IMG/VR virus record: IMGVR_UViG_3300013308_000002
Coordinates: 1-64,000 of that record
Strand: one strand, 5' to 3'
Length of the DNA: 64,000 bases
Source of the DNA: a virus
A program made the translations under genes and the position numbers. The stretch's first letter is position 1; each line of letters opens with the position of its first letter. The notes beneath the pieces were generated by a model, which made no database searches, was not told the origin of the DNA, and saw only the letters and a program-made list of their open reading frames with translations. Shown here one piece after another: positions 1 through 64,000 of the stretch.

Positions 1-95
1 TAGCGCCACCATACTCATCCGGGTATACTCGACCTCATCGACTACCAGCGGCCATTCAACGCCGACCATCAAACATAGCACGGACACAGATCACC

Positions 96-611
96 ATGAG
101 CGAAGAGTTTGACGAAAAGGAAATGCTAGCCACTCCACGAGACTTTGTGGACGAAAACTTTGCGTTGAATAATCAACCCATCTTCAACCAATATATTGCG
201 ATGAGAGTTCAAGGGTATGCTGGTGGCCGAGTCTTCCGCATTCTCTTTGGCGAGAAGTACGTTGGCGACAACTTGATGCAGGCGCGCATCTATGCTTTGG
301 AAAACAACCCGTACTACCGGCGCGAATTCCCGAAGGCTTTGGACAAGATCAAAATAGACGAACTCTGGAATCCCAAAGTTGCCGTCCATGAACTAATCTC
401 ACTCGTGCGCGATAACTTCGCCAAAGATAGTGCGCGGCTGTCTGCGATGAAAGAGCTCAATGTGATTACCAAGATCACCATCATTGACGAGTCTGGCAAT
501 ACCAAGCCAGGTCGCAGCTTGGACGACTTCTACGCTCAGGAGGGTGTCGAAAAGCCGGAAGACGTCGCGCCGGCCGAAATTACGCTGCCGGCATCGCCGA
601 CGACGCACTAA
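96..611 (+). CDS. hypothetical protein (171 aa)
   Basis: ATG-initiated ORF. It is followed by a GC hairpin plus T-run at 730-772. It is a lone plus-strand gene among minus-strand genes. Confidence 0.45.
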   Translation: MSEEFDEKEMLATPRDFVDENFALNNQPIFNQYIAMRVQGYAGGRVFRILFGEKYVGDNLMQARIYALENNPYYRREFPKALDKIKIDELWNPKVAVHELISLVRDNFAKDSARLSAMKELNVITKITIIDESGNTKPGRSLDDFYAQEGVEKPEDVAPAEITLPASPTTH

Positions 612-3707: not shown

Positions 3708-3708
3708 G

Positions 3709-4217: not shown

Positions 4218-4224
4218 TTCGTTC

Positions 4225-4310: not shown

Positions 4311-4328
4311 GAGACGACCGACGAACGG

Positions 4329-4430: not shown

Positions 4431-4654
4431 CGCGCAGCACACTTAATGAGCCACTCAATCCTGGCCGCTGCATCCCGGTGCCATTGCGCTCGCTTGGCGT
4501 AATGTTCGCTAGTACGTTTGTCGGCGCTCACTGCCTTGAACGAAGGCCCGTCCGTCTCCACGGCTCGTTTGGCATATGCCTCACAGGCCTCAGCACCTTT
4601 GGTATGGTGCGCGATCAGATCGAACGCCGATACTCCTTTGGCCTCTTCGATCAT
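4427..4654 (-). CDS. hypothetical protein (75 aa)
   Basis: Internal ATG MIEEAKG. Confidence 0.5.
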   Translation of the reverse strand: MIEEAKGVSAFDLIAHHTKGAEACEAYAKRAVETDGPSFKAVSADKRTSEHYAKRAQWHRDAAARIEWLIKCAAR

Positions 4655-4929
4655 CACGCCACCTTCCCAGGAGCAAACTGCCCGCACACCCTGGCGCGTT
4701 TCGCGGCCGTCTTGATAGCCGTCTCCTGGCGCTGCCTACACGAACATTCGTAGCATTGAAGCGCCCGACCTCGCGCAGCATTACGCAGGTAGTCTCGCGA
4801 CTTTATGTCTGTGCGACCGCAAGCGCAGCGAACCTGGAACGTCCGCTGGTCCGCACTTTGGCTTATTACCTTTGATCCGTTCTTGGCGAACCCTAGGTAA
4901 TTGACCGTCATTTTATTTGCCATCGTCAA
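4654..4929 (-). CDS. Cys-rich zinc-finger-like small protein
   Basis: CxC...CxxC pattern. Its stop overlaps the next start by 1 nt. Confidence 0.4.
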   Translation of the reverse strand: MTMANKMTVNYLGFAKNGSKVISQSADQRTFQVRCACGRTDIKSRDYLRNAARGRALQCYECSCRQRQETAIKTAAKRARVCGQFAPGKVA

Positions 4930-5563
4930 GATCCTTCATCATAAGCTCGTTTGGCGACATGAAAAGCTCGCGAACGGAAGCGACATTATCGATTGCTTTT
5001 GAGAATGGGACCGCAACCGGAATGCCGATGTACCGCTTGCTGATCCCCTCCTGCGCACGCACCAGCCTGGCGTAGTACTCCGACTCGGCGCGACGTAGCT
5101 CCAGCTCCAGCTCGTTGGCGGAAAGCTCAGGACCGGTGTTAGAGGCCGTCGGATCGAACGCTACGGTGATGCCGTCCATTCCTTCTATCGGCGAGTCGCC
5201 GGTGATATCGATTGATTGTATTTGGAGGCCGGAGATAAAGCCGAAGGCCGATGACGATCCAAGCTCAATCGCACGGAATGGCGAAATTTGAAGAGGTCGC
5301 GTAACGCAACGGCAGTTCAGAGACTGAAGGGACGGATCGAATGAGCCGCCACGAGCCTTGTCGATTTTCTTGCGTTTCTGGGTTACCAGAATGCTGCCTG
5401 CGCGCTTGCAACGCAACTTATCACTCTTCCCATCGGCGCGATTGATCGCATCCTGGATGATGCGCGGCACTCTATAGTTGCTGGAGCCGACTCGGTTGGC
5501 AGAGCGATTCCGGTGCATGGACCAGAACATATACCACGTTTCGCGAAGGTTCATTCCGTCCAC
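4913..5563 (-). CDS. hypothetical protein (216 aa)
   Basis: Long ORF with protein-like composition. Confidence 0.6.
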   Translation of the reverse strand: MDGMNLRETWYMFWSMHRNRSANRVGSSNYRVPRIIQDAINRADGKSDKLRCKRAGSILVTQKRKKIDKARGGSFDPSLQSLNCRCVTRPLQISPFRAIELGSSSAFGFISGLQIQSIDITGDSPIEGMDGITVAFDPTASNTGPELSANELELELRRAESEYYARLVRAQEGISKRYIGIPVAVPFSKAIDNVASVRELFMSPNELMMKDLDDGK

Positions 5564-5823
5564 CCATACCCTTTGGTTTCTTCATAGGACTTGCGCCACG
5601 AAGCGCGCCACCAGGCCCAGTTGATGGAGTGAAGTTTATACGGGTTGTCGTCAATCTTCAAGCCCAAAACTACGCAATCGTGACGACCTTGGCGCTTGGC
5701 ATTCGCCTGATCCAGAACTCGCGGCTGTTCACGGGCCAGAATCGGAGTGCCATCCTCGGCAAAGCCTTCAATTCGCTTTCCGTCGATTTCCATCCAGCAG
5801 CCTTCGGAGTTGATCTGGTTCAT
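5551..5823 (-). CDS. hypothetical protein (90 aa)
   Basis: ORF overlapping its neighbours by 4-13 nt. Confidence 0.55.
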   Translation of the reverse strand: MNQINSEGCWMEIDGKRIEGFAEDGTPILAREQPRVLDQANAKRQGRHDCVVLGLKIDDNPYKLHSINWAWWRASWRKSYEETKGYGWTE

Positions 5824-6161
5824 TTCGTGGCTCCAATGGTGACCGCATCGCCAAGCGTATCGCGTTCACGAACGGCCTTCACTTCGCCGCCGAAGACGTG
5901 CCAGACGAACGCACCGCCAGAAGTCTGGAAGGTTCCGATGTAGTTGTGCTCGCCAACGCCAGCCGTGTCCGGAATCTGATGGCCCGTTCCGACTACGTGG
6001 AACCCGTAATCCACCAGCGGCTGTGAGGTATCGATGAGCGCCCAGACCGATATGTTCTGGTTTGGCCCTTGGGTCTGGACGTCCAGGAATACGGCGCCTT
6101 TCGGAATCTTGATCACCGGATTATGCCCGACGTTCACGGCGTATTTGTAAATGGTTTTCAC
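5820..6161 (-). CDS. hypothetical protein, MKTIYKY tandem paralog 1 (113 aa)
   Basis: Clear similarity to the 6331..6630 gene (MKTIYKY..IPKG..FLDVQ.QGPN..WAL.DT..PLV). Confidence 0.65.
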   Translation of the reverse strand: MKTIYKYAVNVGHNPVIKIPKGAVFLDVQTQGPNQNISVWALIDTSQPLVDYGFHVVGTGHQIPDTAGVGEHNYIGTFQTSGGAFVWHVFGGEVKAVRERDTLGDAVTIGATK

Positions 6162-6334
6162 GATTTCACCTCATCCAAAGGAAGGTCAGCGAGTTGCTTC
6201 ATCAACCGAACATCGACGAAGACGGCGTTAGGCGATTTGTCACGGCAAACTTCGTTTGGCATGCCGCTGCGCTCGATGGCCGCTTTGAAGTTGGCGATAA
6301 TGGCCGCAGCTGCTTCAAGCTGTTTGGTTTTCAT
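6158..6334 (-). CDS. hypothetical small protein (58 aa)
   Basis: Internal ATG MKTKQLEAAAA. Sits between the two tandem paralogs. Confidence 0.5.
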   Translation of the reverse strand: MKTKQLEAAAAIIANFKAAIERSGMPNEVCRDKSPNAVFVDVRLMKQLADLPLDEVKS

Positions 6335-6630
6335 AGTGCCACCTCGATTTCCGGAGCGACATCGCCAACAAACACGTGCCAAACGAACAGACCACCTTCA
6401 GTTTGGAATGTACCAACGAACTGGTCACGGTAGATATCCGGAGACGTCACCTCATGGCCAGTGCCATAAACGCGGAACGTGACCTCAACCAAAGGACAGT
6501 TGGTATCGACCAACGCCCAGGCCACCACGTTTGGCCCTTGGATCTGGACGTCCAGAAACTTGAAACCTTTAGGTATCTGAAAAGGCGCGTTGCTGCGTGC
6601 GCCGACTTGGTACTTGTAGATGGTTTTCAT
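6331..6630 (-). CDS. hypothetical protein, MKTIYKY tandem paralog 2 (99 aa)
   Basis: Paralog of 5820..6161; start taken at an internal ATG. Confidence 0.65.
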   Translation of the reverse strand: MKTIYKYQVGARSNAPFQIPKGFKFLDVQIQGPNVVAWALVDTNCPLVEVTFRVYGTGHEVTSPDIYRDQFVGTFQTEGGLFVWHVFVGDVAPEIEVAL

Positions 6631-7067
6631 ATGACAGAGTCCTGTTCTTTGACGCGCAAAGCAAACTTGGCATCTGGGTATTTGCGGATGGTGATTTTGG
6701 TAAGCCATCGAAGGTCAGATGACTCGATTACGTCGTAGATTGCGCCACGCTCGGAGTCCCATTTGCCGCCAGCGACATCCGGACCGAAGTGGATCAGGTG
6801 ATGGATCTCAGCGCGATACCACCGGCGCGCCTGGAGTCCGTCCAGGCTGAGCATTTCGTTATAGAGCCACGTCACTTCAAACTCTGGAAACTCAAGAGGT
6901 CCAAACGGGATGACGTCATCCGGCGCTTTCGGAGCCACGACAGGCGCGGCCATCAACTTGGCGCAACCAGGGCAATCCACCGCGAGGAAAGCAATGGTGG
7001 CGTAGCCTTCGAACAGACCGCACAACGTGGCCTTCCCTGGTTGCTCGGATGGGGCGTGCTTTAACAT
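6627..7067 (-). CDS. hypothetical protein (146 aa)
   Basis: Internal ATG with GGAGG SD. The upstream part of the 256-aa ORF is Arg-rich junk. Confidence 0.6.
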   Translation of the reverse strand: MLKHAPSEQPGKATLCGLFEGYATIAFLAVDCPGCAKLMAAPVVAPKAPDDVIPFGPLEFPEFEVTWLYNEMLSLDGLQARRWYRAEIHHLIHFGPDVAGGKWDSERGAIYDVIESSDLRWLTKITIRKYPDAKFALRVKEQDSVI

Positions 7068-7069
7068 GA

Positions 7070-7321
7070 TTACTTTACCTCCGAGTTGATGTCGAAAGGA
7101 AGAACGATGGACAGAGGCAAGGTCTTTTTGATGTAGCGCTTCAAGTCTTTCAACTCGATGGACTCTGCCACGTCGTACATATCTTCGCTGATTACCACGC
7201 CGTCTTTCGAGGTAATACGATAGGTCAGAGCGCGGAAGCACTTGATCACTTTGCCAGGTTGCAGAGAGCTTTTGCGAGTGGCGTTTTCGATGGTTGTTTG
7301 GAATACGGTCACGGTGTTCAT
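7070..7321 (-). CDS. hypothetical protein (83 aa)
   Basis: Preceded by promoter P4. Confidence 0.6.
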   Translation of the reverse strand: MNTVTVFQTTIENATRKSSLQPGKVIKCFRALTYRITSKDGVVISEDMYDVAESIELKDLKRYIKKTLPLSIVLPFDINSEVK

Positions 7322-7324
7322 CTG

Positions 7325-7395
7325 TCATTCTCCAGAACGTTTCGTTTCGATGAGCCAATTCTATACCGGACTTAGCTGGCCGTCTACAACTATTC
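7325..7395 (-). promoter_or_regulatory. early promoter P4 (AATAGTTGTAGACGG-N-TATAGAAT) with leader GGCTCATCGAAACGAAACG
   Basis: Read on the minus strand. Confidence 0.55.
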
Positions 7396-7642
7396 ACAAA
7401 TCAATAGACACTACTGCCGCGATGAATAACGCCCGTGCAGCCTGGAGGTCGGTGGTCGAGTTGGTCGAGTTCTCAAACAGCTGGATGAACCCGTTGCGAA
7501 CGACGATGTACGCTACGACAGAGAATGCTGCGCTTTGGAGAAGCGTCACCATGTCAGGCTCGTCGCGCTTTCCGGCAATCTCGCACTCGGCCTTGATGAT
7601 GAACGTTGCGCCTTTGATCTTTACTATTTCGTTGACGGCCAT
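7394..7642 (-). CDS. hypothetical protein (82 aa)
   Basis: Internal ATG with GGAGAGG SD. Confidence 0.5.
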   Translation of the reverse strand: MAVNEIVKIKGATFIIKAECEIAGKRDEPDMVTLLQSAAFSVVAYIVVRNGFIQLFENSTNSTTDLQAARALFIAAVVSIDL

Positions 7643-11671: not shown

Positions 11672-13072
11672 TTGGCCGGAGTAACTCCAATTTACACTCT
11701 CAACCCAGCACTACGATCCTTCTGGCGGACCAGGAGCCGCTACAAGGCCTTGTACGGCGGTCGGGCATCTTCCAAGTCGCACGACGCTGCAGGCATGGCA
11801 GTATATCTCGCGGCCAACTACACGCTGAAGTTCCTTTGCGCTCGACAATTCCAAAACCGTATTGATGAATCAGTTTATACGCTGATCAAAAACAAAATCG
11901 AAAATAGCCACTTCAAAGACGAGTTCTATCTAACTAAGAACTCTATCAAGCATAAAATCACCGGCTCTGAATTCCTCTTCTACGGTATCGCCCGCAACTT
12001 GTCTGAGATCAAATCCACCGAGGGCGTCGATATCCTCTGGATGGAAGAGGCACACTATCTGCAGGAAGAGCAGTGGGAAGTTATCGAGCCTACCATCCGG
12101 AAAGAGGGTAGTCAGATTTGGTTGATCTGGAACCCGGATGAGATCACCGACTTCATCTATCAGAACTTCGTGGTTAATCCTCCGGAGGACTGTCTGGCCA
12201 AGATGATTAACTGGGAAGAGAATCCATACCTTTCCGATACCATGCTCAAAGTCATCCACGACGCGTATAAGCGCGATCCGGAGAAGGCACAGCACATCTA
12301 TGGCGGAGTTCCGAAGACTGGCGGCGACAAGTCGGTGATCAACCTCAAGTTCATCATGGCCGCTGTCGATGCTCACAAGGTCCTGGGTTGGGAGCCGTCC
12401 GGAACTAAGCGCGTCGGATTTGACGTAGCTGACGACGGCGAAGATGCCAACGCGACCACGTACATGCACGGCAACGTCATTATGGAGATTGACGAGTGGG
12501 ACGGCCTGGAAGACAAAATTCTTGAGTCATCCAAGAAGGTTTACAACTACTGCCGGGATAAAGGCGCCGTCTGCACCTATGACTCCATCGGAGTTGGCGC
12601 GCACGTTGGTTCTAAGTTCTCTGAGATCAACGACGTCCAGGAAAATGGATACGTCCTATCCTATGATCCGTTCAACGCAGGCGGTGGTGTACGGGACCCA
12701 GACGAAGCCTACATGGTTCTGCCGCACGTAATCATCACCAACAAAGAGCAGTTCGCTAACATCAAAGCGCAGATGTGGATGGAAGTCTCGACTCGATTCC
12801 AGAAGACATTCGAAGCAGTTACGATGGGAATTAAGCACCCGCATGACGAACTAATCTCCATCAACAAAGATACTCTCACGCCGAAGCAACTAACTCAGTT
12901 GATGTTTGAACTTTCTGCTCCACGGAAGGACTTGGACGGCAACGGCAAGTTCAAGGTCGAGTCCAAAAAGGACATGCGCGAAAAGCGTAAGATCAAGTCG
13001 CCAAACGTCGCCGACTCCGTGATCATGGCGGCCATCTTGCCTAAGCGCGCCCCGGCCGGCTTCTTCGATTGA
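11672..13072 (+). CDS. terL: terminase large subunit
   Basis: Walker-A-like YGGRASSKSHDAAG. Length and nuclease-half features are typical of a PBSX/Terminase_6-type TerL. Followed by a terminator. Confidence 0.9.
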   Translation: MAGVTPIYTLNPALRSFWRTRSRYKALYGGRASSKSHDAAGMAVYLAANYTLKFLCARQFQNRIDESVYTLIKNKIENSHFKDEFYLTKNSIKHKITGSEFLFYGIARNLSEIKSTEGVDILWMEEAHYLQEEQWEVIEPTIRKEGSQIWLIWNPDEITDFIYQNFVVNPPEDCLAKMINWEENPYLSDTMLKVIHDAYKRDPEKAQHIYGGVPKTGGDKSVINLKFIMAAVDAHKVLGWEPSGTKRVGFDVADDGEDANATTYMHGNVIMEIDEWDGLEDKILESSKKVYNYCRDKGAVCTYDSIGVGAHVGSKFSEINDVQENGYVLSYDPFNAGGGVRDPDEAYMVLPHVIITNKEQFANIKAQMWMEVSTRFQKTFEAVTMGIKHPHDELISINKDTLTPKQLTQLMFELSAPRKDLDGNGKFKVESKKDMREKRKIKSPNVADSVIMAAILPKRAPAGFFD

Positions 13073-13082
13073 CGAACAAAGA

Positions 13083-13110
13083 AAAGCCCCAATCAAGGGG
13101 CTTTCAAGTC
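13083..13110 (+). terminator. rho-independent terminator after terL
   Basis: Stem AGCCCC-AATCAA-GGGGCT followed by a T-containing tail. Confidence 0.6.
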
Positions 13111-13304
13111 TCTCTGGCGGCATCTTATACGGCCAGACTACGTTCGCAGGCTCCAATGGCAGGTTGCATTGCAGAGTGCTGGGCTTGGACAGGCCCGAAC
13201 GCAAGTTGCTGGACACCAGCGTCAATGTGTAGGCTATCGGCTTAATCCCCATTGCAGGGCGCTCACGAACGCGCTAGCCTGGCTATTATATCGCAAATAG
13301 CACC

Positions 13305-13336
13305 CAATAAAAAGCCCTCGACATGGAGGTCTTTTT
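13305..13336. terminator. bidirectional terminator-like hairpin flanked by an A-run and a T-run
   Basis: Sequence AAAAAGCCCTCGACATGGAGGTCTTTTTATT; the stem is imperfect. Confidence 0.35.
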
Positions 13337-18436: not shown

Positions 18437-18592
18437 CATGGTTAGTTCCTCAATAGAAGTTGCGATGATATACCTATCATAAGTTATAGGCAAATAAGTT
18501 AGTTGCATTAACACTATATAATGGCCGATTGCCGTGCAAGTACAACAACACTATACTACATATATCCAGGCCAATTGTTGCGAACTATAAAC

Positions 18593-20860
18593 ATGAAACT
18601 ATTCCAATGGAACTTGTGGGGAAAGAAACCAGAAGTTGAAGATGCCAAAGACGTCCAGACTTTTGCTAAGTCCCATGACCCTTTGGATCCACTAGCCAAA
18701 GCCCATTCAGGCGGCAGCGGTTGGAAAGATGAGCCTACAAACCCATTCGCAGTAACTATCGACCAATATCCGGTATACAACTCCGGCGCGATGGACTCGG
18801 CAGACTCCGGCAATAGCGTAAAGGCAGCGTCGCAGGGTGCACAGGGCTCTTACGCCGTCCCGCCCTCCGTCCAGGAGTGGTACAACTCGCAAGGGTTCAT
18901 CGGATACCAGGCTTGCGCCCTAATCGCCCAGCATTGGCTCGTGGACAAGGCGTGCTCCCAGTCCGGCGAAGACTCCGTGCGTAACGGATGGGAAATCAAG
19001 ACCGACGGCAATGCTTTGAGCGATGAAGAGCTCAGCAAGATCAAAACCCAAGACATCAAGTTCAAGATCAAAGAGAACTTGGTTGAGTTCAACCGATTCA
19101 AGAATATATTCGGCATCCGCGTTGCCATCTTCGAAGTCGAAAGCGACGACCCAAAGTATTACGAGAAGCCATTCAACATCGATGGCGTCACCGAGGGCTC
19201 GTATAAGGGCATGTCTCAGGTCGATCCTTATTGGATGACGCCAATGATGACTTCTGCCTGTACTCAAAACCCGGCAGACAAGCACTTTTACGATCCGGAA
19301 TATTGGGTCATCAGCGGCAAGAAGTATCACCGCAGCCACCTCTGCATCGCTCGTGGGCCGGCTCCGGCAGACATCTTGAAGCCGACGTACATCTTCGGCG
19401 GTATTCCGTTGACGCAGCGCATCTATGAGCGCGTGTATGCCGCTGAGCGTATTGCGAACGAAGCGCCTCTACTTGCGCTCAGCAAACGAACGACGGCCAT
19501 CCACGTCGACGTCGCAAAGGCGATGGCAAACGAAACTTCGTTTGTCGAGAAGTTGCTTTTCTGGGTCAAGTATCGCGACAACCACGCGGTGAAAGTTCTT
19601 GGCAAAGATGAGTCCATGGAGCAGTTCGACACTAACCTGTCAGACTTTGACTCCCTCATCATGAACCAATACCAACTTGTCGCGGCCATCGCCAAAACAC
19701 CGGCCACCAAGATCCTCGGGACTTCGCCTAAAGGGTTCAATGCAACAGGAGAGTTTGAGACAGTCTCTTATCACGAAGAGTTGGAGTCTCTTCATGAGCA
19801 CACTTTCGATCCGATGTTGGAGCGCCATTACTTGCTGACTATGAAGTCGATGGGTCACGAAGTCCAAGTGTCCATCGTTTGGAATCCGGTCGATTCGATC
19901 TCGACTCAAGTCCGCGCAGAACTTAACGCGAAGAAAGCTGCCGCGCATGAAATCTATGTAAATGTAGGCGCGGTATCGCCAGACGAAGTTCGCCAAACCC
20001 TTCGTGATGATTCTACTTCTGGCTATAATCGCCTTTCGGATGAAGAGGCCAACAAAGAGCCAGGTGCGTCGCCAGAGAACTTGGCGGAGTTTGAGAAGGC
20101 CGGAGCCGAAGAAAACCGGACGGCAGCAGCGCAAATCAGCGCTGGATTAACACCACGGCCTGTGACCCACGGCAACCATCCAGCGCCAACCGCTATCACG
20201 CCTCAACCAACGGTCGCGAAACCGGCACCTAGTGTTACAGAGGGCGTATCTGGGCCTTCGATCCAGACCGGAGTCGTCGAAGGACTCAAGGCGTTGATCG
20301 CCAGCTTGAACGAAATGTCAGACAAGCTTCTGCCTAATGGCGTGGACCTGCCAACGCACAACTCGCCTGGAGTCAAACGGACCGTCCAGCCTGGGATTGT
20401 AGGCGACGAGCCAACCACCGTGGGCGCGGGAGCCTTGGTGCCTGCTTCAGACCCAGATAACCTTCCGCGCATCAAAATGCACGATATGGTAGCGGTCATC
20501 GAGAACCATCGCGGCTCTATTCGCCAAGGAAAGAACGGCGATTGGCAGATCAAGATGGCGCACCACTACGGGTTCATCAAAGGGACGGACGGTGCAGACG
20601 GCGACGAGGTTGACTGCTTCATCGGGCCTGACTTGGAATCCAGAAAGGTCTTCGTAGTCAACCAGAAAAAGCAGGATGGGACTTTTGACGAGCACAAAGT
20701 GATGCTCGGATTCCACGGACCTATCGAAGCAAAAGATGCTTACCACGCATCGTACAAAGACGGCTGGACCGGCTTCGGATCTATGCATCCGATGGATGTT
20801 GACGACTTCAAAGCATGGTTGACCTCTGGCGATTGCAACCAGCCTCTGGGTAACATCTGA
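18593..20860 (+). CDS. portal protein with C-terminal family-I inorganic-pyrophosphatase-like domain
   Basis: Lies between terL and the head morphogenesis gene. It is about 756 aa from the ATG at 18593. The C-terminal roughly 130 aa carry YGFI..DGADGDEVDCF, which matches the PPase signature D-[SGDN]-D-[PE]-[LIVMF]-D-[LIVMGAC], plus SYKD. Confidence 0.65.
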   Translation: MKLFQWNLWGKKPEVEDAKDVQTFAKSHDPLDPLAKAHSGGSGWKDEPTNPFAVTIDQYPVYNSGAMDSADSGNSVKAASQGAQGSYAVPPSVQEWYNSQGFIGYQACALIAQHWLVDKACSQSGEDSVRNGWEIKTDGNALSDEELSKIKTQDIKFKIKENLVEFNRFKNIFGIRVAIFEVESDDPKYYEKPFNIDGVTEGSYKGMSQVDPYWMTPMMTSACTQNPADKHFYDPEYWVISGKKYHRSHLCIARGPAPADILKPTYIFGGIPLTQRIYERVYAAERIANEAPLLALSKRTTAIHVDVAKAMANETSFVEKLLFWVKYRDNHAVKVLGKDESMEQFDTNLSDFDSLIMNQYQLVAAIAKTPATKILGTSPKGFNATGEFETVSYHEELESLHEHTFDPMLERHYLLTMKSMGHEVQVSIVWNPVDSISTQVRAELNAKKAAAHEIYVNVGAVSPDEVRQTLRDDSTSGYNRLSDEEANKEPGASPENLAEFEKAGAEENRTAAAQISAGLTPRPVTHGNHPAPTAITPQPTVAKPAPSVTEGVSGPSIQTGVVEGLKALIASLNEMSDKLLPNGVDLPTHNSPGVKRTVQPGIVGDEPTTVGAGALVPASDPDNLPRIKMHDMVAVIENHRGSIRQGKNGDWQIKMAHHYGFIKGTDGADGDEVDCFIGPDLESRKVFVVNQKKQDGTFDEHKVMLGFHGPIEAKDAYHASYKDGWTGFGSMHPMDVDDFKAWLTSGDCNQPLGNI

Positions 20861-21699
20861 TGGCCTTCGTGGCGTCCAAAAAACGTGAACGGCGGGCGCC
20901 AGAGCCGGTGGGAAGGGGCTCGCCTATCATCCCATCGGCAGCGCTAGAGTCTTGGTATAGAAAGCAACTGAATGGCATGGTTGCTTCTATGATCAAAGAG
21001 TATAAGGAGACAATAACAGGCGAGATTAAATCGGAGCAGGGCCAAAGGTTCTATGCCACCGACGCGATATTTGCTGACGCATTCTCTGGAGTCCTCAAAA
21101 GCCTTCAACAAAGATGGGGGCGAATCTTTGAAGGTTTCGCGGCCAAGTTGGCGCCGGAGTATGTAGAGAAGGTCGACGGACAGGCCACATCCGCAACTTT
21201 GAACAGCCTTAGTGTTGCAGGCGTTAAAGCGCCAATAGCAACTTACAACGCAGGCGTCGCGAATACTTTGAAGGCCTCTGTAGAGTACAACCACACTTTG
21301 ATAACCGGACTCGCGGCTGACATCCACGAACAAGTCCACTCTGCAGTCATGCTTTCGCTCACCTCTCCTAATCCAGAAGAGCAGGGCACCAACGGAATTA
21401 AAGCGGCGCTTAAAAAGGCCGGAATCGACTCTGAAAAGCGAGTCGATTTAATCGTCAGGGATCAGACAAGCAAAATATACAGCGCTCTAAGTGACGAGCG
21501 CATGGAACAGAACGGATGCACAGAGTTTGAATGGGCCCACTCTTCGGCCGGGAAAGTGCCGCGCCATACTCACGTTGAGAAGGATGGTCAAATATTCAAG
21601 TTGAATGACCCTAGACTATGGGAGGGCCCAAAGGGGGACCAAGGACCGCCTGGATGGGCGATTAATTGCCGTTGCAGAAAGATCCCGATCTTCAGATAG
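20860..21699 (+). CDS. head morphogenesis protein (SPP1 gp7 / Mu F-like)
   Basis: C-terminal HTHVEKDGQIFKLNDP...PGWAINCRCRKIP is typical of the Phage_Mu_F family. Confidence 0.8.
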   Translation: MAFVASKKRERRAPEPVGRGSPIIPSAALESWYRKQLNGMVASMIKEYKETITGEIKSEQGQRFYATDAIFADAFSGVLKSLQQRWGRIFEGFAAKLAPEYVEKVDGQATSATLNSLSVAGVKAPIATYNAGVANTLKASVEYNHTLITGLAADIHEQVHSAVMLSLTSPNPEEQGTNGIKAALKKAGIDSEKRVDLIVRDQTSKIYSALSDERMEQNGCTEFEWAHSSAGKVPRHTHVEKDGQIFKLNDPRLWEGPKGDQGPPGWAINCRCRKIPIFR

Positions 21700-21719
21700 A
21701 CCACGTGTTGATTGCCGCT

Positions 21720-21908
21720 ATGGAATCAACGAATGCCAAACTAAGTCGAGAAAATCAAATGTACGCAACCGCCAAAAAGTTGCAATTCAGCAATGTCTTT
21801 GAAGGTTTCCTGAAGAAATATGATAGACCGGGATTCTTCAGCATTAGATGGGCCGCAGTTGACGTCGTAGTTATCGCCGCAAGTTTGATCGTCGTTTATG
21901 CAAAGTAA
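21720..21908 (+). CDS. small C-terminally membrane-anchored protein
   Basis: Internal ATG; C-terminus WAAVDVVVIAASLIVVYAK. Confidence 0.35.
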   Translation: MESTNAKLSRENQMYATAKKLQFSNVFEGFLKKYDRPGFFSIRWAAVDVVVIAASLIVVYAK

Positions 21909-21926
21909 CATGGTTTCGGTGTAATT

Positions 21927-22245
21927 TACTTTCCTCCAACCGGCCGCAAGTTGGTTGGAGGAAAGTTGGAGGAAAGTAAGAGCTGCGGATTACGTGGGCT
22001 CTACACTACTTTCCTACTTTCCCAATAAAAATTGCGTTTTTCAAGAGCTATAAGGAAACGTATATATCAATGTACTACTACTGCTTACTCTATATCCTCT
22101 TAAAATTTAAAATAATTAAGGAAAGTAGGAAAGTAGAGTACAAGAACGAGTCAAGCCAGCGGCCTGCTTGACTATTACACCTGTCTGAACTTTCCAAATA
22201 ACTTTCCACGCGGCAATAACATCAGGAAAGTAGGAAAGTACTGTT
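21927..22245. repeat. array of at least 11 GGAAAGT / ACTTTCC heptamers as alternating-orientation doublets, plus a 14-bp-arm palindrome and an AT-rich core
   Basis: ACTTTCCTCCAACC-N11-GGTTGGAGGAAAGT at 21928-21966. Doublets at about 21956-21977, 22007-22023, 22118-22140, 22188-22210 and 22223-22243. AT-rich stretch at 22025-22120. Confidence 0.8.
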
Positions 22246-22382
22246 AATCTCAATGTATGGCCATACTCTGACGTACAGTCACGGCGACACCGAAAGAGTT
22301 TCTGCGACCATTCGAATTAGTTGCCCCTTGTGTAACAGTCGAATATACTCTCCAGCAACTAAGCCAACCGCGAATATGTACG

Positions 22383-23774
22383 ATGCCTACCGCACGCGAA
22401 ATCGATGACAACGGGTTCTTACTTATCAAGGCATGTCCCATCACGTCATTCGGTATCTTTGATTACTCTGCCGGCCAACTTGGCTTGCCGGGTGATCCTA
22501 ATCGCATTGTTAAAGTATTCCGGCCTGAGTCCGCAGTAAATGATCCAGCGGCAATCGAGTCGTTTAAAAACGTCCCGTTGATTAATGATCACGAAATGTT
22601 GTCAGGCTTTCAAGGCGACAAAGATAGTGCTGCTCCGGAAGACTATGGTGTTTCGGGTATCCTTACTTCAAACGTCTATTATGCCAAGCCATGGATGCTT
22701 GGTGATTTGAAAGTGTTCTCTCGTGAGATGCAGGCTCTGCTAAGCAAAGGCAAAAAGGATTTGTCGCTTGGTTACTCCTGTGACTTCGAAGAGAAGCCCG
22801 GTGTTTGGCAAGGCCAAGCTTACGAGATTGTCCAAACCAACATGCGCGGCAACCACATCGCTCTGGTTGATGAAGGTCGCGTGCCGGGCGCAAGGGTATT
22901 GGATGGTTTATGTTTCGACCATCTCAGTTTTGACTTCAAACCATCCGATAAGGAAAACACCATGCCAAAGTCCCGCAAGACTATGGACAAGGCAGCGCGT
23001 GATAGCGCCGTCGAAGAACTGAAAACGCTCGTGCCTGCGTTGGCCAAAGCTCTTGAAGGCTTTCTGGCTGAAGAAGGCGCGGAACCTGAACATCAGGAAG
23101 GCGCAGCACCGGCCGTCGCTGCAAGCGCCGCTCCAGCGGCCGAGAATACCGACTCGCCGGCCGAACCAGCCGCTGCCGCTGCTCCTGCTCCTGAAGCCGG
23201 CGCGGAGCCTGTCGTAACACCACAGGCTGGCAACGAAGCTGGCGGTGATATCCAGGCCCTGATCGCTGCCGCGAAGACCGCCCTGGCCAACCTGGAGGCC
23301 GCAGCATGTCCACCGGGTGCAACCAATGAAGAACTCGCAGCCGACCAAACCGAAGGCTTGCAAGAGCAATCCGCAAACAACGGTGGCGCGGTCGGTACTG
23401 ACGCAGAAGGCCAAGAGCCGGGTAAAATCAACGATAACGAGGGCGGTGAAATGGAAGGCAACCCAGGCAATAAAGCGTCGGATGCTGCGGTTGGTCGTTT
23501 CTACGCTGATCTTGCTGCTAAGACTGGCCTCTACGACCGGCTGTCTAAAGTTGTTGGCGCCTTTTCTCACGGCGGTATGGACGCACGCCAAGTTGCTGTT
23601 TATGGCGTGAAGAAGCTCGGCCTCAAATGCGCTGACGGCATGGAACACGTCGCCGTTGATGCGTACCTCGGCGCTGTCGAAGCTGCCGCAAAACGCACCA
23701 GCACCCAAGTTAGTGCCAAGGCCGCAGACGCTGCCGTTGGTTGCCCAGAAATCGATGCGTACATCAAAGGTTAA
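22383..23774 (+). CDS. scaffolding-like protein (N-terminal DUF2213-like domain, Ala/Pro/Glu-rich low-complexity middle)
   Basis: Immediately upstream of the capsid gene. Contains a long AAPAVAASAAPAAE... low-complexity region. Confidence 0.5.
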   Translation: MPTAREIDDNGFLLIKACPITSFGIFDYSAGQLGLPGDPNRIVKVFRPESAVNDPAAIESFKNVPLINDHEMLSGFQGDKDSAAPEDYGVSGILTSNVYYAKPWMLGDLKVFSREMQALLSKGKKDLSLGYSCDFEEKPGVWQGQAYEIVQTNMRGNHIALVDEGRVPGARVLDGLCFDHLSFDFKPSDKENTMPKSRKTMDKAARDSAVEELKTLVPALAKALEGFLAEEGAEPEHQEGAAPAVAASAAPAAENTDSPAEPAAAAAPAPEAGAEPVVTPQAGNEAGGDIQALIAAAKTALANLEAAACPPGATNEELAADQTEGLQEQSANNGGAVGTDAEGQEPGKINDNEGGEMEGNPGNKASDAAVGRFYADLAAKTGLYDRLSKVVGAFSHGGMDARQVAVYGVKKLGLKCADGMEHVAVDAYLGAVEAAAKRTSTQVSAKAADAAVGCPEIDAYIKG

Positions 23775-23779
23775 TAATC

Positions 23780-24403
23780 ATGACTTTCCAACGCTCCGTC
23801 GCCCGTAACTTTCCGGTCGGTTTCCCAGGTGAAATCGTTCGTGATGGCCCAACCCGCGCCATCGCCGCTCGTGTCGCCACCAGCTCCAAAGCAGGCACCC
23901 CGCGCTTCGTAGGCAACCGCGTCGGCCACGTGTTCGGCTACGTCGGTGAAGTGCCGGTATCTGGCAAAACCCAGGCCGCTCTGGTATCCACCGTCGAAGT
24001 CGGCGGCGCCAACTACGCCGGCATCTTCATCCATCCGAAACACCACGTGCTGCAAGGCACTATCGCTGGCGGTCCGCTCGCAGCATCGCTGGATGTTCCG
24101 GACGCTACCGAAATCGAAGTAGCCAACATGGTTACCGGTCTGGTAGTCCAGATCTACAACCACACCAAGGCAGTCAAGACCATCGTTGCTGGCGACGATC
24201 TGTACTACGTCTCCACCGCGACGACCGACCTTGAAGACGATCTGATCCTGCCTTTGGGCGCTATCATTTCCGTCGCCAAAGGTGGCGCTGCCCCGGCCGG
24301 CTTCACCAAGATCAACGGTCAAGTAATGAACTCCATCTCACTGGTTGCCTCTGCTGTCGGCGCCGTTGTAGCTGGTCTGACCATCATCCAGACCGTTCAA
24401 TAA
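23780..24403 (+). CDS. putative capsid-associated structural protein
   Basis: ATG with AAAGG SD. Lies between the scaffold and major capsid genes. Confidence 0.5.
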   Translation: MTFQRSVARNFPVGFPGEIVRDGPTRAIAARVATSSKAGTPRFVGNRVGHVFGYVGEVPVSGKTQAALVSTVEVGGANYAGIFIHPKHHVLQGTIAGGPLAASLDVPDATEIEVANMVTGLVVQIYNHTKAVKTIVAGDDLYYVSTATTDLEDDLILPLGAIISVAKGGAAPAGFTKINGQVMNSISLVASAVGAVVAGLTIIQTVQ

Positions 24404-60656: not shown

Positions 60657-61066
60657 CTCACAACTTCGAAACCAAACAAGCGGTCGATAACCAAGGCCGT
60701 CGAATCCTTCGTGACGTCCAAGAAATGAACTCGCCACCTGGGATGGAGGTGACGCTTCTGGCCGTGACTCTCCACAAGTTGGATAAGCTCAAGATCGAAT
60801 GGCGCCTGATGAAAGAAGGCAACCAGCGACAGTTGATCGATGACGTCATCAAAGCGATTGGTCCGCGCCAGTTCGATAACGATCCGTCGCGGCCTGGGTA
60901 TTCGTGCGTTAAGTGCCTGTTTGCTTACGGGGCTACTCCAGGACGCTCGCGCATCTGGCTGAAAGAGGCCATGCTTGAGTTGACTCAACTTAAGCGTCAA
61001 GTCGAGTTCTATAAGTGCAACCCAATGCCCGATGAAGCTGATCCGCATAGCAGGTTCGCCCGGTGA
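60653..61066 (+). CDS. hypothetical protein, tandem paralog 2
   Basis: ATGA overlap with the preceding gene; alignable with it over the full length. Confidence 0.55.
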   Translation: MTHNFETKQAVDNQGRRILRDVQEMNSPPGMEVTLLAVTLHKLDKLKIEWRLMKEGNQRQLIDDVIKAIGPRQFDNDPSRPGYSCVKCLFAYGATPGRSRIWLKEAMLELTQLKRQVEFYKCNPMPDEADPHSRFAR

Positions 61067-62139
61067 GTAAGTCGCGGCTGGAGGCGGCCGAAGAGTTCCT
61101 GGTCCAACTGAAGCATACCATTCCGGAGACGGAGCGGGTGATGGCCGGTTACGCAGATGAAGCAACGGTGCAGACTGACGAAAACGGCAAGAAGTTGAAT
61201 GCCGCGTGGTGGCCTGTGCCTTGGAATAACGGAAAGTACATTAACACAAAGGCGAACTGTTATGCCTGTATCTCGTCGTCAATTAAAACAGCGAACCCGC
61301 ACAACGGCCAGATGCGCTTCTGGCGCGGCGAATCGTCCTTTGGTCACGGGCTGGCAGTTATGGTGGATGACATCGGATTTGGAAAAGGCTCTAAAGGAGG
61401 ACTTGGCCTTGACTTCTTCGAGGCTATTCTACCGCCGACTGTCACAGTCGAAACTTCGCCTGGCAACTATCAGTTGTGGTATTTCTTCGATACGCCCGTT
61501 GATTCGCTAATCCACTTCAAGGCTCTGCTGAATAGCTTTGTGGCTAACGTGCTCAAGAAGGGCGGTGATAATACCATTAAGGATACGAGCCGTTACGGTC
61601 GGATGCCGATTGGCATTAACAACAAGAAGCATGGTCCAGACATGCAACTGAAGTACGAGACGGCAGATGGCAAGCCGTTCGAAGTTCAATTGGTCCAGGC
61701 GGATTATTCGCGGCGCTACTCTCCTGAAGATATCGCGAGCGCGTTCAAGTTCACCATTGTAGTGCCGCAAAAACAGATTATCCAGATTGATGCAGAGGAA
61801 TATAAGTACGACCAAGTTTGGCTACATATCGCCGAGTACGTCACCAACAAGGCAAAGATGGGTGAAGCGACTGGCGGTGACGTTAACATGAATATGTCCG
61901 GCAAGTTCCGGATCAAATGCCCTTGGGGTCACGAACATGCCAACGGTGATCCGTCTGGCGCGTACTTCCGTGGACCGATTCCCGGCGCTGAACATGAGTT
62001 CATATTCGGTTGTGGCCATGACGGATGCCGTAAGAAGCGCAGGACATGGGCCGTATTTATCGATGAAATAGTAATCCCTGAGATAGCAGGCCGTTTGGAA
62101 GCTATTAACCGTAAAGCAGCAGGGTTGGATCCAGCATGA
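61063..62139 (+). CDS. primase-polymerase (prim-pol / AEP-like) with C-terminal Cys/His zinc-binding region
   Basis: Motifs MVDDIGFG and ETSPGNYQLWYFF; C-terminal CPWGHEH...CGHDGC. Confidence 0.5.
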   Translation: MSKSRLEAAEEFLVQLKHTIPETERVMAGYADEATVQTDENGKKLNAAWWPVPWNNGKYINTKANCYACISSSIKTANPHNGQMRFWRGESSFGHGLAVMVDDIGFGKGSKGGLGLDFFEAILPPTVTVETSPGNYQLWYFFDTPVDSLIHFKALLNSFVANVLKKGGDNTIKDTSRYGRMPIGINNKKHGPDMQLKYETADGKPFEVQLVQADYSRRYSPEDIASAFKFTIVVPQKQIIQIDAEEYKYDQVWLHIAEYVTNKAKMGEATGGDVNMNMSGKFRIKCPWGHEHANGDPSGAYFRGPIPGAEHEFIFGCGHDGCRKKRRTWAVFIDEIVIPEIAGRLEAINRKAAGLDPA

Positions 62140-62986: not shown

Positions 62987-64000
62987 ATGACCGAGCATGA
63001 ATCACCTGGAATCGATGGGCCGGTTAGTGACGGCTCCGATTACTTTGACATCACACAGGTTGAAGATGTACCGCTAGACGAAAGCCCGATGATGAAAGCC
63101 GCTGGCGAAAAGGCTGAGAAGGCCGTTCTGAACATGGACCATAAGGCGAACCAACGCGAGTTGAACCGCGCCGAGTGCTATATTGAAACGGATCTAGTCA
63201 AGCGCGCACGCCTCCTGACGTCGATGGATGCGATCAAGTTCGTCCACTACAAGAAGGGCAATCCAAACGATCCTGAGAACGTCGGGATGCGAGCCAAGAC
63301 CGATTCGCTGATGAACCGCCACGCGGTCTATGACGCGCTATTCGACTTCGGCTCAGGCAAGGTGCCGTATCCCCACTACGACACGTTTCGGGCGCGGCTA
63401 GTCGATCACGAAGGGCAAGTATTCAGCACCAAGACGCTACGCACCCGCGAGCTGGTACGCGCCATCGACAAGGCCGGGATGGAGAACCCTTCTGACAAGG
63501 AAGTGGCCGACTCGTTGCGGTCCTGGGCTTTGGATCACCGACGCGATAGCCTGGCAGAGTTCTTTGAGGCGTCGATCCCAAAGTGGGACGGCGTTCCTCG
63601 TTTGGACACTCTCCTTCTGACGCTCTTTGAGCCAAGGGACACTCCGATCAATCGGCTATTCAGTCGGTACTTTTGGATGAGCCTCTATAAGCGAGTCACG
63701 GACGCTGGAGCCCAAGCCCCTATCATCCTTTCGCTCATTGGCGCGCAGGACTTGGGGAAGTCGTATTTCTCTGTGTTACTTTGCCGCCTGCTAACGGGTG
63801 ATGATTCCGTTGGCCCGGTGAAGTTGGACTTGGGCGCGAAGAGTTACAACACTTTCTTGCGTAGCATCACCGGTAAAAGTTTGATCGCAGTTATTGGCGA
63901 AATGACCGGCTTCAAACAAGGCGACATGAACCGCATCAAGGATTTTGTAACTAAGACCGAAGATGACCTGGACTTCAAGTTTGAAGATTCGATCATTAAA
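62987..64000 (+). CDS. VirE-like P-loop primase/helicase (partial; runs off the window)
   Basis: Open reading frame from the ATG at 62987 to the window end. Walker-A-like IGAQDLGKS. Confidence 0.55.
   Translation, partial: MTEHESPGIDGPVSDGSDYFDITQVEDVPLDESPMMKAAGEKAEKAVLNMDHKANQRELNRAECYIETDLVKRARLLTSMDAIKFVHYKKGNPNDPENVGMRAKTDSLMNRHAVYDALFDFGSGKVPYPHYDTFRARLVDHEGQVFSTKTLRTRELVRAIDKAGMENPSDKEVADSLRSWALDHRRDSLAEFFEASIPKWDGVPRLDTLLLTLFEPRDTPINRLFSRYFWMSLYKRVTDAGAQAPIILSLIGAQDLGKSYFSVLLCRLLTGDDSVGPVKLDLGAKSYNTFLRSITGKSLIAVIGEMTGFKQGDMNRIKDFVTKTEDDLDFKFEDSIIK

What the first reader, a model, noticed from the sequence alone, without database searches (positions are those of the whole stretch)
21909..22382. 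Dense alternating-orientation GGAAAGT iteron array with AT-rich core inside the head gene module
A 470-bp non-coding, AT-rich island interrupts the tightly packed head genes. It contains a 14-bp-arm perfect palindrome (ACTTTCCTCCAACC-N11-GGTTGGAGGAAAGT). It also contains at least five doublets of the heptamer GGAAAGT that strictly alternate in orientation: forward-forward, reverse-reverse, and so on. These flank a roughly 95-bp A/T-rich stretch. This architecture resembles iteron-type replication origins (iterons plus a DNA-unwinding element) or a multi-site binding array for a late transcription activator or a packaging protein. It sits immediately upstream of the scaffold and capsid genes, so it could couple late transcription, replication initiation or pac recognition.
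Basis: seen in the sequence. Interest (0 to 1): 0.7.

Follow-up and report, generated by a model that had tools for sequence, protein, structure and literature searches.

The report
Second iteron-type origin-like site in phage
The repeat-studded AT-rich gap in front of the head protease gene is real and looks like a loading site for the phage's own replication helicase; a sister copy elsewhere in the genome coincides with the DNA end in related phages.

Summary
Window 21928-22239 carries 11 exact GGAAAGT heptamers in alternating orientation around a 97-bp core that is 75% AT.

The window is a distant PB1-like (Pbunavirus-like) myovirus. I rebuilt its 69.7-kb genome. The heptamer clusters at only two places: this gap ("A") and a paralogous gap ("B") that ends about 100 bp before window position 1, upstream of terS.

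Relatives keep the same architecture at both places but use lineage-specific units, and A and B of one genome always share the unit. Orthologous A elements share the backbone but not the units. A and B of this phage share the units but almost nothing else.

The phage encodes a RepB-type primase and a VapE helicase. The predicted structure of the helicase best matches the SaPI1 Rep initiator (PDB 7PDS). Its C-terminal winged-helix domain is hypervariable between close relatives whose units differ. SaPI origins are built the same way: iterons in opposite orientations on both sides of an AT-rich centre.

Best reading: A is a second, dispensable iteron-type origin-like helicase-loading site. One caveat is that the core of B holds the physical genome end in phages Kyle, MTx and Ab27, so a terminase/pac role for the arrays is a live rival. 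GC skew supports neither A nor B as an origin.

The parts
21909..22382 (.). Whole non-coding gap ('element A') between the small membrane-protein ORF (stop at 21908) and the head protease/scaffold gene
   Evidence: A gap of 390-830 nt sits at the same position in Pbunavirus, Myosmarvirus, Kylevirus and many IMG/VR relatives.
21928..21977 (.). Left iteron set 1: one reverse unit (21928-21934) and two forward units (21960-21966, 21971-21977). It includes the perfect 14-bp palindrome arms 21928-21941 / 21953-21966.
22008..22022 (-). Reverse iteron doublet ACTTTCCTACTTTCC that abuts the left edge of the AT-rich core
   Evidence: An identical 16-mer occurs in the phage's own element B.
22023..22119 (.). 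AT-rich core (75.3% AT), the candidate DNA-unwinding region. It contains backbone motifs conserved in relatives: AAATTGCGTTTTTC at 22029-22042 and TATATCCTCTTAAAA at 22091-22105.
   Evidence: The 15-mer at 22091-22105 is identical in the VapE-downstream element of a Burkholderia chromosomal island (L089).
22120..22134 (+). Forward iteron doublet GGAAAGTAGGAAAGT that abuts the right edge of the core
   Evidence: In the paralogous element B of phage 14-1, the equivalent doublet fills the spacer of the mapped promoter P040.
22150..22172 (.). GC-rich hairpin GTCAAGC-N9-GCTTGAC. It is a backbone element conserved with the closest relative (22159-22180, 95%).
22189..22239 (.). Right iteron set 2: a reverse doublet (22189, 22201; 12-bp period), the CGCGGCAA motif (22209-22216), and a forward doublet (22225, 22233)
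22321..22349 (+). Sigma70-like promoter TTGCCC-17-TATACT for the protease-scaffold-capsid genes. It is separate from the array.
   Evidence: It is orthologous to the experimentally mapped TSS P014 (13257+) of phage 14-1. The stretch 22312-22382 is 93% identical to the closest relative.
22383..23774 (+). Head maturation protease/scaffold gene (DUF2213), immediately downstream
61063..62139 (+). RepB-type (AEP) primase gene, the 'pri' partner
   Evidence: Pfam PF16793, E 1.1e-38
62987..64000 (+). N-terminal 338 codons of the 570-aa VapE/SaPI-Rep-like initiator-helicase, the proposed iteron-binding protein. Its winged-helix C-terminal domain lies outside the window.
1..95 (+). Tail of the C/A-rich right flank of paralogous element B. 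The B iterons (12 GGAAAGT) lie about 150-660 bp upstream of window position 1 on the source contig.
96..611 (+). Small terminase (TerS) gene directly downstream of element B
   Evidence: PDB 7UXE (E217 TerS), E 5e-48

Best explanation
Element A is an iteron-type, origin-like assembly site for the phage's own initiator-helicase. Two or more 7-bp iterons point in opposite directions on each side of a 97-bp AT-rich unwinding region.

The proposed mechanism follows SaPI Rep and, more loosely, P4 alpha. The winged-helix C-terminal domain of the VapE/Rep-like helicase binds the GGAAAGT units. One hexamer loads on each side of the core. The core melts, and the RepB-type primase primes synthesis.

A is the second of two paralogous copies. 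The other copy (B) lies between the helicase gene and terS. A is dispensable in some lineages, so it probably acts as an auxiliary origin or as a cis-acting partner of B, like P4 crr.

Shown here:
- the architecture;
- the two-locus distribution of the unit;
- covariation of the unit between A and B within each genome;
- homology of the helicase to SaPI Rep;
- hypervariability of its C-terminal domain.

Inferred, not shown:
- that this domain binds the units;
- that replication starts here.
For: (1) The layout matches the published SaPI origin rule. Qiao 2022 (PMC9371898) describes 6-12 short iterons, an AT-rich centre, at least two iterons on each side pointing in opposite directions, and a position just downstream of rep. 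Element B follows the VapE gene directly in 14-1, MTx, MATE2 and many IMG/VR contigs.

(2) The 570-aa helicase has a VapE ATPase domain (PF05272, E 1e-24) and hits SaPI1 Rep1 (7PDS) by sequence (E 6e-9). Its AF2 model (pLDDT 88, pTM 0.81) has 7PDS as its best PDB fold match: E 2.8e-16, TM 0.62, about 480-500 aligned columns against a 454-residue target. The C-terminal domain has winged-helix topology: H444-456, E470-474, H475-486, H492-501, E505-509, E512-518.

(3) Against the closest relative, whose units differ, helicase residues 61-420 are 70-93% identical. Residues 421-570 are only 33-53% identical. The same modular pattern appears across the family (core 78-86% versus C-terminal domain 29-55%). 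It also appears in the Kyle-like trio, whose three members have three different units.

(4) The unit is specific to each genome and shared by A and B. The hexamer-sharing matrix has 4-8 on the diagonal and 0-2 off it. Contig 3300042156_117 carries ATCCGAT in both A and B.

(5) Orthologous A elements keep the backbone at 93-100% identity but not the iterons. The phage's own A and B share the iteron blocks and only one short (11-nt) core stretch besides.

(6) A RepB-type primase gene lies next to the helicase gene, giving a pri-rep pair as in SaPIs. The helicase ends in an acidic tail with a terminal Phe.
Against: No binding or replication data exist for this phage group.

Cumulative G-C skew on the rebuilt genome has its minimum at 51.8 kb and no extremum at A or B. 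The published Pbunavirus skew minima also lie in the replication-gene region (PMC12390725).

The core of the paralogous element B is where the physical genome end maps in Kyle, MTx and Ab27. This fits a terminase site at least as well as an origin.

The VapE-B-TerS order is kept even in chromosomal islands, so TerS is as tightly linked to the element as the helicase is.

A is missing in about 8 of 21 relatives, including the closest cultured one, Xylella phage MATE2. It therefore cannot be an essential origin.

Hypervariable C-terminal domains can have other causes. The covariation of the C-terminal domain with the unit is also confounded by phylogeny.
Confidence: 0.5

Rival explanations
1. 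The arrays are recognition sites for the terminase small subunit, making this a pac-like nucleoprotein site comparable to P1 pac or SPP1 pacL-pacC-pacR. On this reading B is the real packaging start. A is a paralogous copy that binds TerS without being cut. It might act as a synapsis partner, as proposed for the T4 gene 16/19 pac sequences, or as a decoy or regulator of head-gene expression.
For: The physical left end of the genome lies inside the AT-rich core of B, between the opposed arrays, in three independent lineages:
- In Serratia phage MTx, the record annotates a PhageTerm direct terminal repeat at 1-3566, and position 1 lies in the core.
- Pantoea phage Kyle carries both repeat copies, and the boundary falls in the core at a small palindrome.
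- Pbunavirus Ab27 was opened at a fixed read terminus, and its position 1 lies in the B core.

B sits directly upstream of terS in this phage and most relatives. The VapE-B-TerS module persists in Burkholderia islands. Short repeats flanking a central cleavage region are the known design of P1 and SPP1 pac sites (own knowledge).
Against: No terminus has been reported at A. Ab27 shows a single fixed terminus, and no sampled record starts at A.

E217 TerS, a homologue, showed no appreciable DNA binding in vitro (PMC9611059).

TerS diverges uniformly in the Kyle-like trio, with no specificity-domain signature. Against the closest relative it shows only a modest N-terminal dip, whereas the helicase C-terminal domain is strikingly modular.

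A second pac copy in the head module has no obvious use in a phage with exact direct terminal repeats.
Confidence: 0.22
2. The array is an operator or enhancer cluster for a phage-encoded transcription factor. The factor switches expression of late genes (protease-scaffold-capsid at A, terS at B), in the manner of the phi29 p4 multi-site switch.
For: Both A and B lie upstream of sigma70-type promoters of morphogenesis and packaging genes. These are 14-1 P014 and P041, and window 22321-22349.

In 14-1 element B, the forward doublet GTAATTTGGTAATTTGG occupies the spacer of the mapped promoter P040. Any protein bound there must therefore affect transcription.

The JG024 authors predicted a sigma70 promoter in the A core and noted AT-rich boxes of unknown function.
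Against: No candidate regulator with matching variability was identified. ONT-cappable-seq found no TSS inside the 14-1 A array. Eleven to thirteen sites flanking a roughly 100-bp AT-rich core is far more than promoter control needs. The same element follows VapE in integrative islands that have no head genes. This role is not exclusive of the origin reading.
Confidence: 0.15
3. The region encodes a structured non-coding RNA, and the inverted repeats are its stems.
For: The RNA fold of 21915-22250 has z = -6.3 against shuffles. The arms stay complementary across lineages although their sequences differ.
Against: There is no Rfam hit in the window. No TSS lies upstream of or within the 14-1 A array, and no terminator was mapped there. 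Unit spacing differs between supposed partner arms (8 versus 12 bp), and extra unpaired copies exist. In 14-1 element B, the mapped TSS lies between the arms, so they cannot sit on one transcript. The low folding energy follows trivially from inverted binding sites.
Confidence: 0.03
4. A is a decaying, non-functional duplicate of element B, or a MITE-like insertion bounded by the 21-nt inverted repeat.
For: A is absent from about 8 of 21 relatives. The 21-nt inverted repeats around a 97-bp AT-rich segment look superficially like a MITE.
Against: The units in A are perfect (11 of 11 exact). They track the units of B in every genome examined, although A and B otherwise share almost no sequence. 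That pattern requires continuing selection. A has kept the same position and architecture from Pbunavirus to Kylevirus. No other copies occur in the genome or in the collections searched.
Confidence: 0.07

Closest known systems
SaPI replication origins with their Rep self-loading helicases (Staphylococcus aureus pathogenicity islands; Ubeda 2007/2012 as cited in Qiao 2022, PMC9371898)
   Same: - Short iterons lie on both sides of a central AT-rich region, with at least two per side pointing in opposite directions.
- The origin lies immediately 3' of the initiator-helicase gene (this applies to element B).
- The initiator is an SF3/VapE-type hexameric helicase with a C-terminal winged-helix domain that sets iteron specificity.
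- A separate primase gene lies next to it.
- The phage helicase model matches SaPI1 Rep1 (7PDS) best of all PDB entries.
   Different: - The units are 7 bp rather than 5-6 bp.
- There are 11-13 units arranged as several alternating doublets, not two simple sets.
- There are two copies per genome, one of them (A) about 22 kb from the helicase gene, inside the head module.
- The host replicon is a virulent roughly 70-kb myovirus of Gram-negative bacteria, not a satellite.
- The core of copy B coincides with the virion DNA end in relatives.
- Binding is untested.
Satellite phage P4 ori plus crr, bound by the alpha primase-helicase (own knowledge)
   Same: Two separated clusters of the same iteron are recognised by the C-terminal winged-helix domain of a primase-helicase. 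The second cluster acts in cis at a distance.
   Different: P4 alpha fuses the primase and helicase, whereas here the RepB primase is a separate gene. P4 crr lies 4.5 kb from ori and is essential. Here the copies are about 22 kb apart and A is dispensable in some lineages. No sequence similarity was tested.
pac sites of phage P1 (hexamer clusters flanking a central cleavage zone) and SPP1 (pacL-pacC-pacR) (own knowledge)
   Same: Clusters of short repeats lie on both sides of a central region of about 90-100 bp. The site sits next to terS. For element B, the DNA end maps inside the central region.
   Different: Those phages have a single site each. The P1 hexamers are palindromic Dam sites. 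No end maps to element A. The homologous E217 TerS showed no DNA binding in vitro.

Membership tests
Iteron-type origin of the SaPI/Rep class | Multiple short iterons on both sides of a central AT-rich region, at least two per side in opposite orientation | tested here: met
   A reverse doublet at 22008/22016 and a forward doublet at 22120/22128 flank the 97-bp core, which is 75% AT. Further alternating sets lie outside them. The rule is quoted from PMC9371898.
Iteron-type origin of the SaPI/Rep class | A cognate SF3/VapE-type initiator-helicase with a C-terminal winged-helix domain is encoded by the same replicon | tested here: met
   PF05272, E 1e-24. 7PDS by sequence, E 6e-9. AF2 model with pLDDT 88; Foldseek to 7PDS gives E 2.8e-16 and TM 0.62; the C-terminal domain has H-S-H-H-S-S winged-helix topology.
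Iteron-type origin of the SaPI/Rep class | [quoted passage not shown] | tested here: not met
   Element A lies in the head module, about 22 kb from B and about 29 kb from the helicase gene on the circular map. Only the paralogue B takes that position, in 14-1, MTx, MATE2, L056, L073 and L082. In this phage even B is separated from the helicase gene by 13 small genes.
Iteron-type origin of the SaPI/Rep class | Iteron sequence co-varies with the initiator's specificity domain | tested here: inconclusive
   The C-terminal domain is hypervariable wherever units differ. A clade with similar C-terminal domains shares AGTTG-type units. However, all comparisons are confounded by phylogeny, and TerS also differs.
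Iteron-type origin of the SaPI/Rep class | The initiator binds the iterons and replication initiates there | not testable with these tools
   This needs EMSA or footprinting and origin mapping. GC skew gives no support (minimum at 51.8 kb).
Terminase recognition/cleavage (pac) site | A virion DNA end maps within the element | tested here: not met
   This fails for A: no record or paper places an end there. It is met for the paralogue B in Kyle, MTx and Ab27.
Terminase recognition/cleavage (pac) site | TerS binds the repeats specifically | not testable with these tools
   The only published datum is that E217 TerS showed no appreciable DNA binding in vitro (PMC9611059).
Curated structured RNA families (Rfam) | Match to a covariance model at the gathering score | tested here: not met
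   No hits in the whole window. No tRNA or tmRNA genes.

The most novel reading that the evidence does not exclude
PB1-like myoviruses, a group that includes the therapeutic Pbunavirus phages, and related chromosomal islands may share a single VapE-iteron-TerS module. In that module the same iteron-flanked AT-rich core would serve both as the helicase-loading origin and as the place where the terminase makes the genome end. Local initiation at B would then duplicate the direct terminal repeat, or license packaging. Element A would be a distal copy that couples replication or packaging complexes to the head-gene operon.
Probability: 0.15. Interest if true: 0.8.

Novelty: new member of a known kind. 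Interest (0 to 1): 0.55.

Why it matters
The papers I could search describe no replication origin or pac site for the PB1-like/Pbunavirus group, which is widely used in phage therapy. They mention only AT-rich boxes and motifs of unknown function, plus conflicting reports on the genome ends.

This analysis gives two precisely bounded candidate cis elements per genome, a named candidate binding domain, and a simple rule: lineage-specific heptamers shared by both loci. All three can be tested directly.

If the reading is confirmed, it would help in several ways:
- engineering and rebooting these phages;
- explaining incompatibility or interference between co-infecting relatives and satellites that carry the same module;
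- testing whether replication initiation and terminus formation are physically coupled.

Tried and rejected
- Direct DNA similarity of the gap to 50,697 phage records found only chance matches.
- The Rfam and tRNA scans were empty.
- A relaxed doublet search found no further arrays in the window.
- The apparent gaps at 54.5 kb and 63 kb turned out to be coding.
- Exact-DNA scans of metagenome contigs and genome contigs for the source contig found nothing. An exact-protein look-up of TerS did find it.
- A TerS-alignment scan of IMG/VR reached only 7 loci.
- A profile search of the helicase C-terminal domain against PDB sequences gave only chance ribosomal hits. The fold was then established by structure prediction.
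- I tried to find a pair with the same TerS but different units. The Kyle-like trio was uninformative because TerS also differs. The Wifcevirus-like locus L094 did not reach B or terS.
- GC skew was computed on the full genome and was uninformative for A and B.
- The E217 terminase paper (PMC10026623) is not held.
- One literature search with generic terms returned nothing relevant.
- I rejected the idea that the upstream 80-aa ORF (21666-21908) is the binding protein. It has no family hit and ends in a hydrophobic, membrane-like tail.

Full report
**1. The observation**

The gap 21909-22382 lies between a small ORF that ends in a hydrophobic tail (21666-21908) and the head protease/scaffold gene (22383-23774). 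The portal gene (18521-20860) and a Mu-F-like minor head gene (20860-21699) lie upstream. The cement and major capsid genes lie downstream.

GGAAAGT occurs 11 times between 21928 and 22239, in this order:
- one reverse unit;
- a forward pair;
- a reverse pair;
- a 97-bp core;
- a forward pair;
- a reverse pair;
- a forward pair.

The 14-bp perfect palindrome and a 21-nt inverted repeat around the core are both present. The window holds 24 copies against 8.35 expected, and no shuffle out of 100 reaches 24. The core is 75.3% AT against 47.1% for the genome.

**2. What the window is**

The head genes are about 69% identical in DNA to Pbunavirus (PB1-like) myoviruses. Serratia, Xanthomonas, Pantoea, Escherichia and Burkholderia relatives are more distant. 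The closest cultured relative by protease sequence is Xylella phage MATE2 at 73% aa identity. The closest uncultured one is an IMG/VR contig at 78%.

An exact look-up of the TerS protein found the source phage on two assemblies: ENA ERZ27252518 (69,838 bp) and Logan SRR7975607. Both are identical to the window over 6 kb. Joining them to the window gave a 69,697-bp genome.

**3. A second copy**

Phage 14-1 has a 551-bp gap at the same place (12771-13321). It also has a second, 963-bp gap between the primase-helicase gene gp75 and gp76. The sequence of that second gap is a paralogue of the first.

gp76 and window 96-611 encode TerS, matching E217 TerS (PDB 7UXE) at E 5e-48. In the present phage this second element, which I call B, ends about 100 bp before window position 1. 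It carries 12 exact GGAAAGT units in the same alternating pattern around an AT-rich core.

Genome-wide, 23 of the 37 copies lie in A or B. The other 14 are scattered singles.

**4. Lineage-specific units**

The architecture recurs at the A position in Pbunavirus (GGTAATT/GGAAATT), Myosmarvirus (GAAAAGT) and Kylevirus (GGTTATT). It also recurs in IMG/VR contigs with ATCGGAT, CTTGCGG, ATAGTTG, GGTAAGT and CCGGTAAAGT/CTTCCCGG.

Within a genome, A and B share the unit. The hexamer-sharing matrix has 4-8 on the diagonal and 0-2 off it. On contig 3300042156_117, ATCCGAT is the unit both in A (L006) and after the helicase gene (L056).

The most telling comparison is:
- Window A and its orthologue in the closest relative keep the backbone: 22312-22382 at 93%, 22159-22180 at 95%, 22090-22108 at 95% and 22029-22042 at 100%. 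Their iteron blocks do not align.
- Window A and the phage's own B match in the iteron blocks (15-20 nt, 100%) and otherwise in only one 11-nt core stretch.

Orthologues share the backbone and paralogues share the units. This is the signature of sites read by a trans-acting protein whose specificity drifts.

**5. The candidate protein**

Window 61063-62139 encodes a RepB-type primase (PF16793, E 1e-38). The gene that starts at 62987 encodes a 570-aa VapE-type ATPase (PF05272). Its only PDB sequence hit is 7PDS, the Rep1 helicase of SaPI1 (E 6e-9).

An AF2 model built on 61 homologues (pLDDT 88.3, pTM 0.81) has 7PDS as by far its best structural match. The Foldseek values are E 2.8e-16, target TM 0.62 and about 480-500 aligned columns against a 454-residue chain. 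Poxvirus D5/E5, ASFV PrimPol and NrS-1 helicases follow.

The C-terminal part of the model has winged-helix topology: H444-456, strand 470-474, H475-486, H492-501 and hairpin 505-518.

Qiao et al. 2022 (PMC9371898) state that SaPI Reps recognise penta- or hexanucleotide iterons through a C-terminal winged-helix domain. They also state that six to twelve iterons lie just downstream of rep, with an AT-rich region at the centre. At least two iterons on each side point in opposite directions, and one hexamer is thought to load on each side. That description fits A and B.

**6. Hypervariable C-terminal domain**

Against the closest relative, helicase residues 61-420 are 70-93% identical per 30-residue bin. 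Residues 421-570 fall to 33-53%.

Across 61 homologues, many pairs have cores 78-86% identical but C-terminal domains only 29-55% identical. In other pairs the two values are equal, so the domain behaves as a swappable module.

In three Kyle-like phages with three different units, the core is 78-83% identical and the C-terminal domain 30-40%. TerS is 58-74% identical, with no localised drop. A clade with similar C-terminal domains uses AGTTG-type units.

This is what an iteron-specificity domain should look like. The test is confounded by phylogeny, however, and I rate it as suggestive only.

**7. The complication: genome ends in B**

- The record of Serratia phage MTx annotates a PhageTerm direct terminal repeat at 1-3566. 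Position 1 falls in the AT-rich core of B, with reverse units to the left (at the record's end) and forward units to the right.
- Pantoea phage Kyle carries both repeat copies (terS at 357 and at 69922). The 3,603-bp repeat starts in the B core at a small palindrome.
- Essoh et al. [quoted passage not shown] Ab27 position 1 lies in the B core.

B is therefore where the DNA end is made in three lineages. B also has features that A lacks:
- a G/T-rich left flank and a C/A-rich right flank;
- in the enteric phages, CCACCAGC in the right flank. On the bottom strand this is the Chi sequence GCTGGTGG, oriented (by my own knowledge of RecBCD) to protect the left end.

The order VapE, B-like element, TerS homologue is kept in a Burkholderia chromosomal island (int-alpA-VapE) and in another element. 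The island's core shares an exact 15-mer with the window's A core at 22091-22105. TerS is thus as tightly linked to the element as the helicase is.

**8. Transcription**

ONT-cappable-seq of 14-1 (Putzeys 2024; supplement of the bioRxiv version) maps one TSS in the A gap. This is P014, 65 nt before the protease ATG. Its orthologue in the window is TTGCCC-17-TATACT at 22321-22349.

No TSS or terminator was mapped inside the A array. In B, the TSS P040 lies just right of the forward doublet, which fills the promoter spacer. That transcript and the P041 transcript both cover terS.

The late promoter is therefore a separate element. Occupancy of the arrays would nonetheless affect transcription, at least in B.

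**9. Other tests**

- Cumulative G-C skew is flat to 24 kb, reaches its minimum at 51.8 kb, and shows no extremum at A or B. This gives no support to an origin at A, although skew is a weak guide in phages.
- A is absent (gap of 49-268 nt, no array) in about 8 of 21 relatives, including MATE2, which keeps a B-like element after its helicase gene. A is therefore dispensable.
- The RNA fold z-score of -6.3 is a trivial result of the inverted sites. The spacing differences, the extra copies and the TSS position in 14-1 B all argue against a single structured RNA.

**10. Verdict**

A is a real, conserved, selected cis element: a paralogue of the helicase/terS intergenic element, read by a protein of lineage-specific specificity.

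| Reading | Confidence |
|---|---|
| SaPI/P4-type iteron origin-like site where the VapE/Rep-like helicase loads; A acts as an auxiliary copy | about 0.5 |
| Terminase recognition array | about 0.2 |
| Transcriptional operator cluster, not exclusive of the others | about 0.15 |

The kind is known. Its presence in duplicate in PB1-like phages, and the coincidence of the sister copy with the genome end, have not been described in the literature I could search.

Noticed in passing
window 1-95 and source contig upstream of it (L045 5166-6000; L046 360-1193): The window starts about 100 bp after a second GGAAAGT array (element B, 12 copies). B has a G/T-rich left flank and a strongly C/A-rich, G-poor right flank, which looks like a rut site. 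Window 1-95 is the end of that right flank, just before terS.
   Followed up: yes
L038 150-250 (Serratia phage MTx) and L041 3810-3875 (Pantoea phage Kyle): The right flank of element B, just inside the genome's left end, contains CCACCAGC once in MTx and twice in Kyle. This is the E. coli Chi sequence GCTGGTGG on the bottom strand, oriented as expected to protect the left end from RecBCD (orientation judged from my own knowledge).
   Followed up: partly
window 22209-22216; also 15963, 22845, 25955, 27234, 32894, 37000, 55768: CGCGGCA(A) is the k-mer most widely shared among the A and B gaps of different lineages. It tends to be forward to the right of the core and reversed (TGCCGCG) to the left. 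All eight CGCGGCAA copies in the window lie on the + strand. Its function is unknown, and a coding-bias effect is not excluded.
   Followed up: partly
L045 1-907 and all helicase homologues: Most of the complete VapE/Rep-like helicases in the set end in an acidic stretch, and nearly all terminate in Phe (GGGF, GEDF, DEGF, GEAF). This resembles the polymerase-binding C-terminal tails of T7 gp4, T7 gp2.5 and bacterial SSB (own knowledge).
   Followed up: no
L089 (Burkholderia sp. chromosome, GCA_036631535.1) 1531-7504; L090: A chromosomal island carries integrase, AlpA, a VapE helicase, a 1.08-kb iteron element (TAGGTA units, CGCGGCA repeats) and a TerS homologue (36% identity). This appears to be a satellite-like element with the same replication/packaging module as the phage.
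   Followed up: partly
window 23783-23814: Two more GGAAAGT units, both on the - strand and 25 bp apart, lie at the junction of the protease gene and the next gene. This is the only other local pair in the genome.
   Followed up: no
window 2830-2880 and 3290-3350: A repeated motif (TTTCG..TTTCGATAG(A/G)(G/C)TGATTATG) lies in two short intergenic spacers between leftward genes. The copies are probably early promoters read on the - strand.
   Followed up: no
L040 3440-3603 (phage Kyle, right boundary of the 3,603-bp terminal repeat): The other boundary of the terminal repeat is preceded by a different cluster of short repeats in both orientations (AATGATTA, ATGGTTAG, TAATTGTTA). This region is annotated as a small gene.
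   Followed up: no
Phage 14-1 promoter table (bioRxiv 10.1101/2023.10.13.562163, Table S3): Many 14-1 'sigma70' early promoters carry TGCTTTAC(T/C)T at the -35 position. This resembles the T4 MotA box TGCTTTA (own knowledge). The paper does not discuss it.
   Followed up: no
L043 7321-7732 (Xylella phage MATE2): In MATE2 the equivalent gap is filled with three tiny annotated ORFs, one of them a 43-aa 'putative DNA methyltransferase'. The annotation was transferred by nucleotide similarity, so these are probably artefacts. This phage has no A array.
   Followed up: partly
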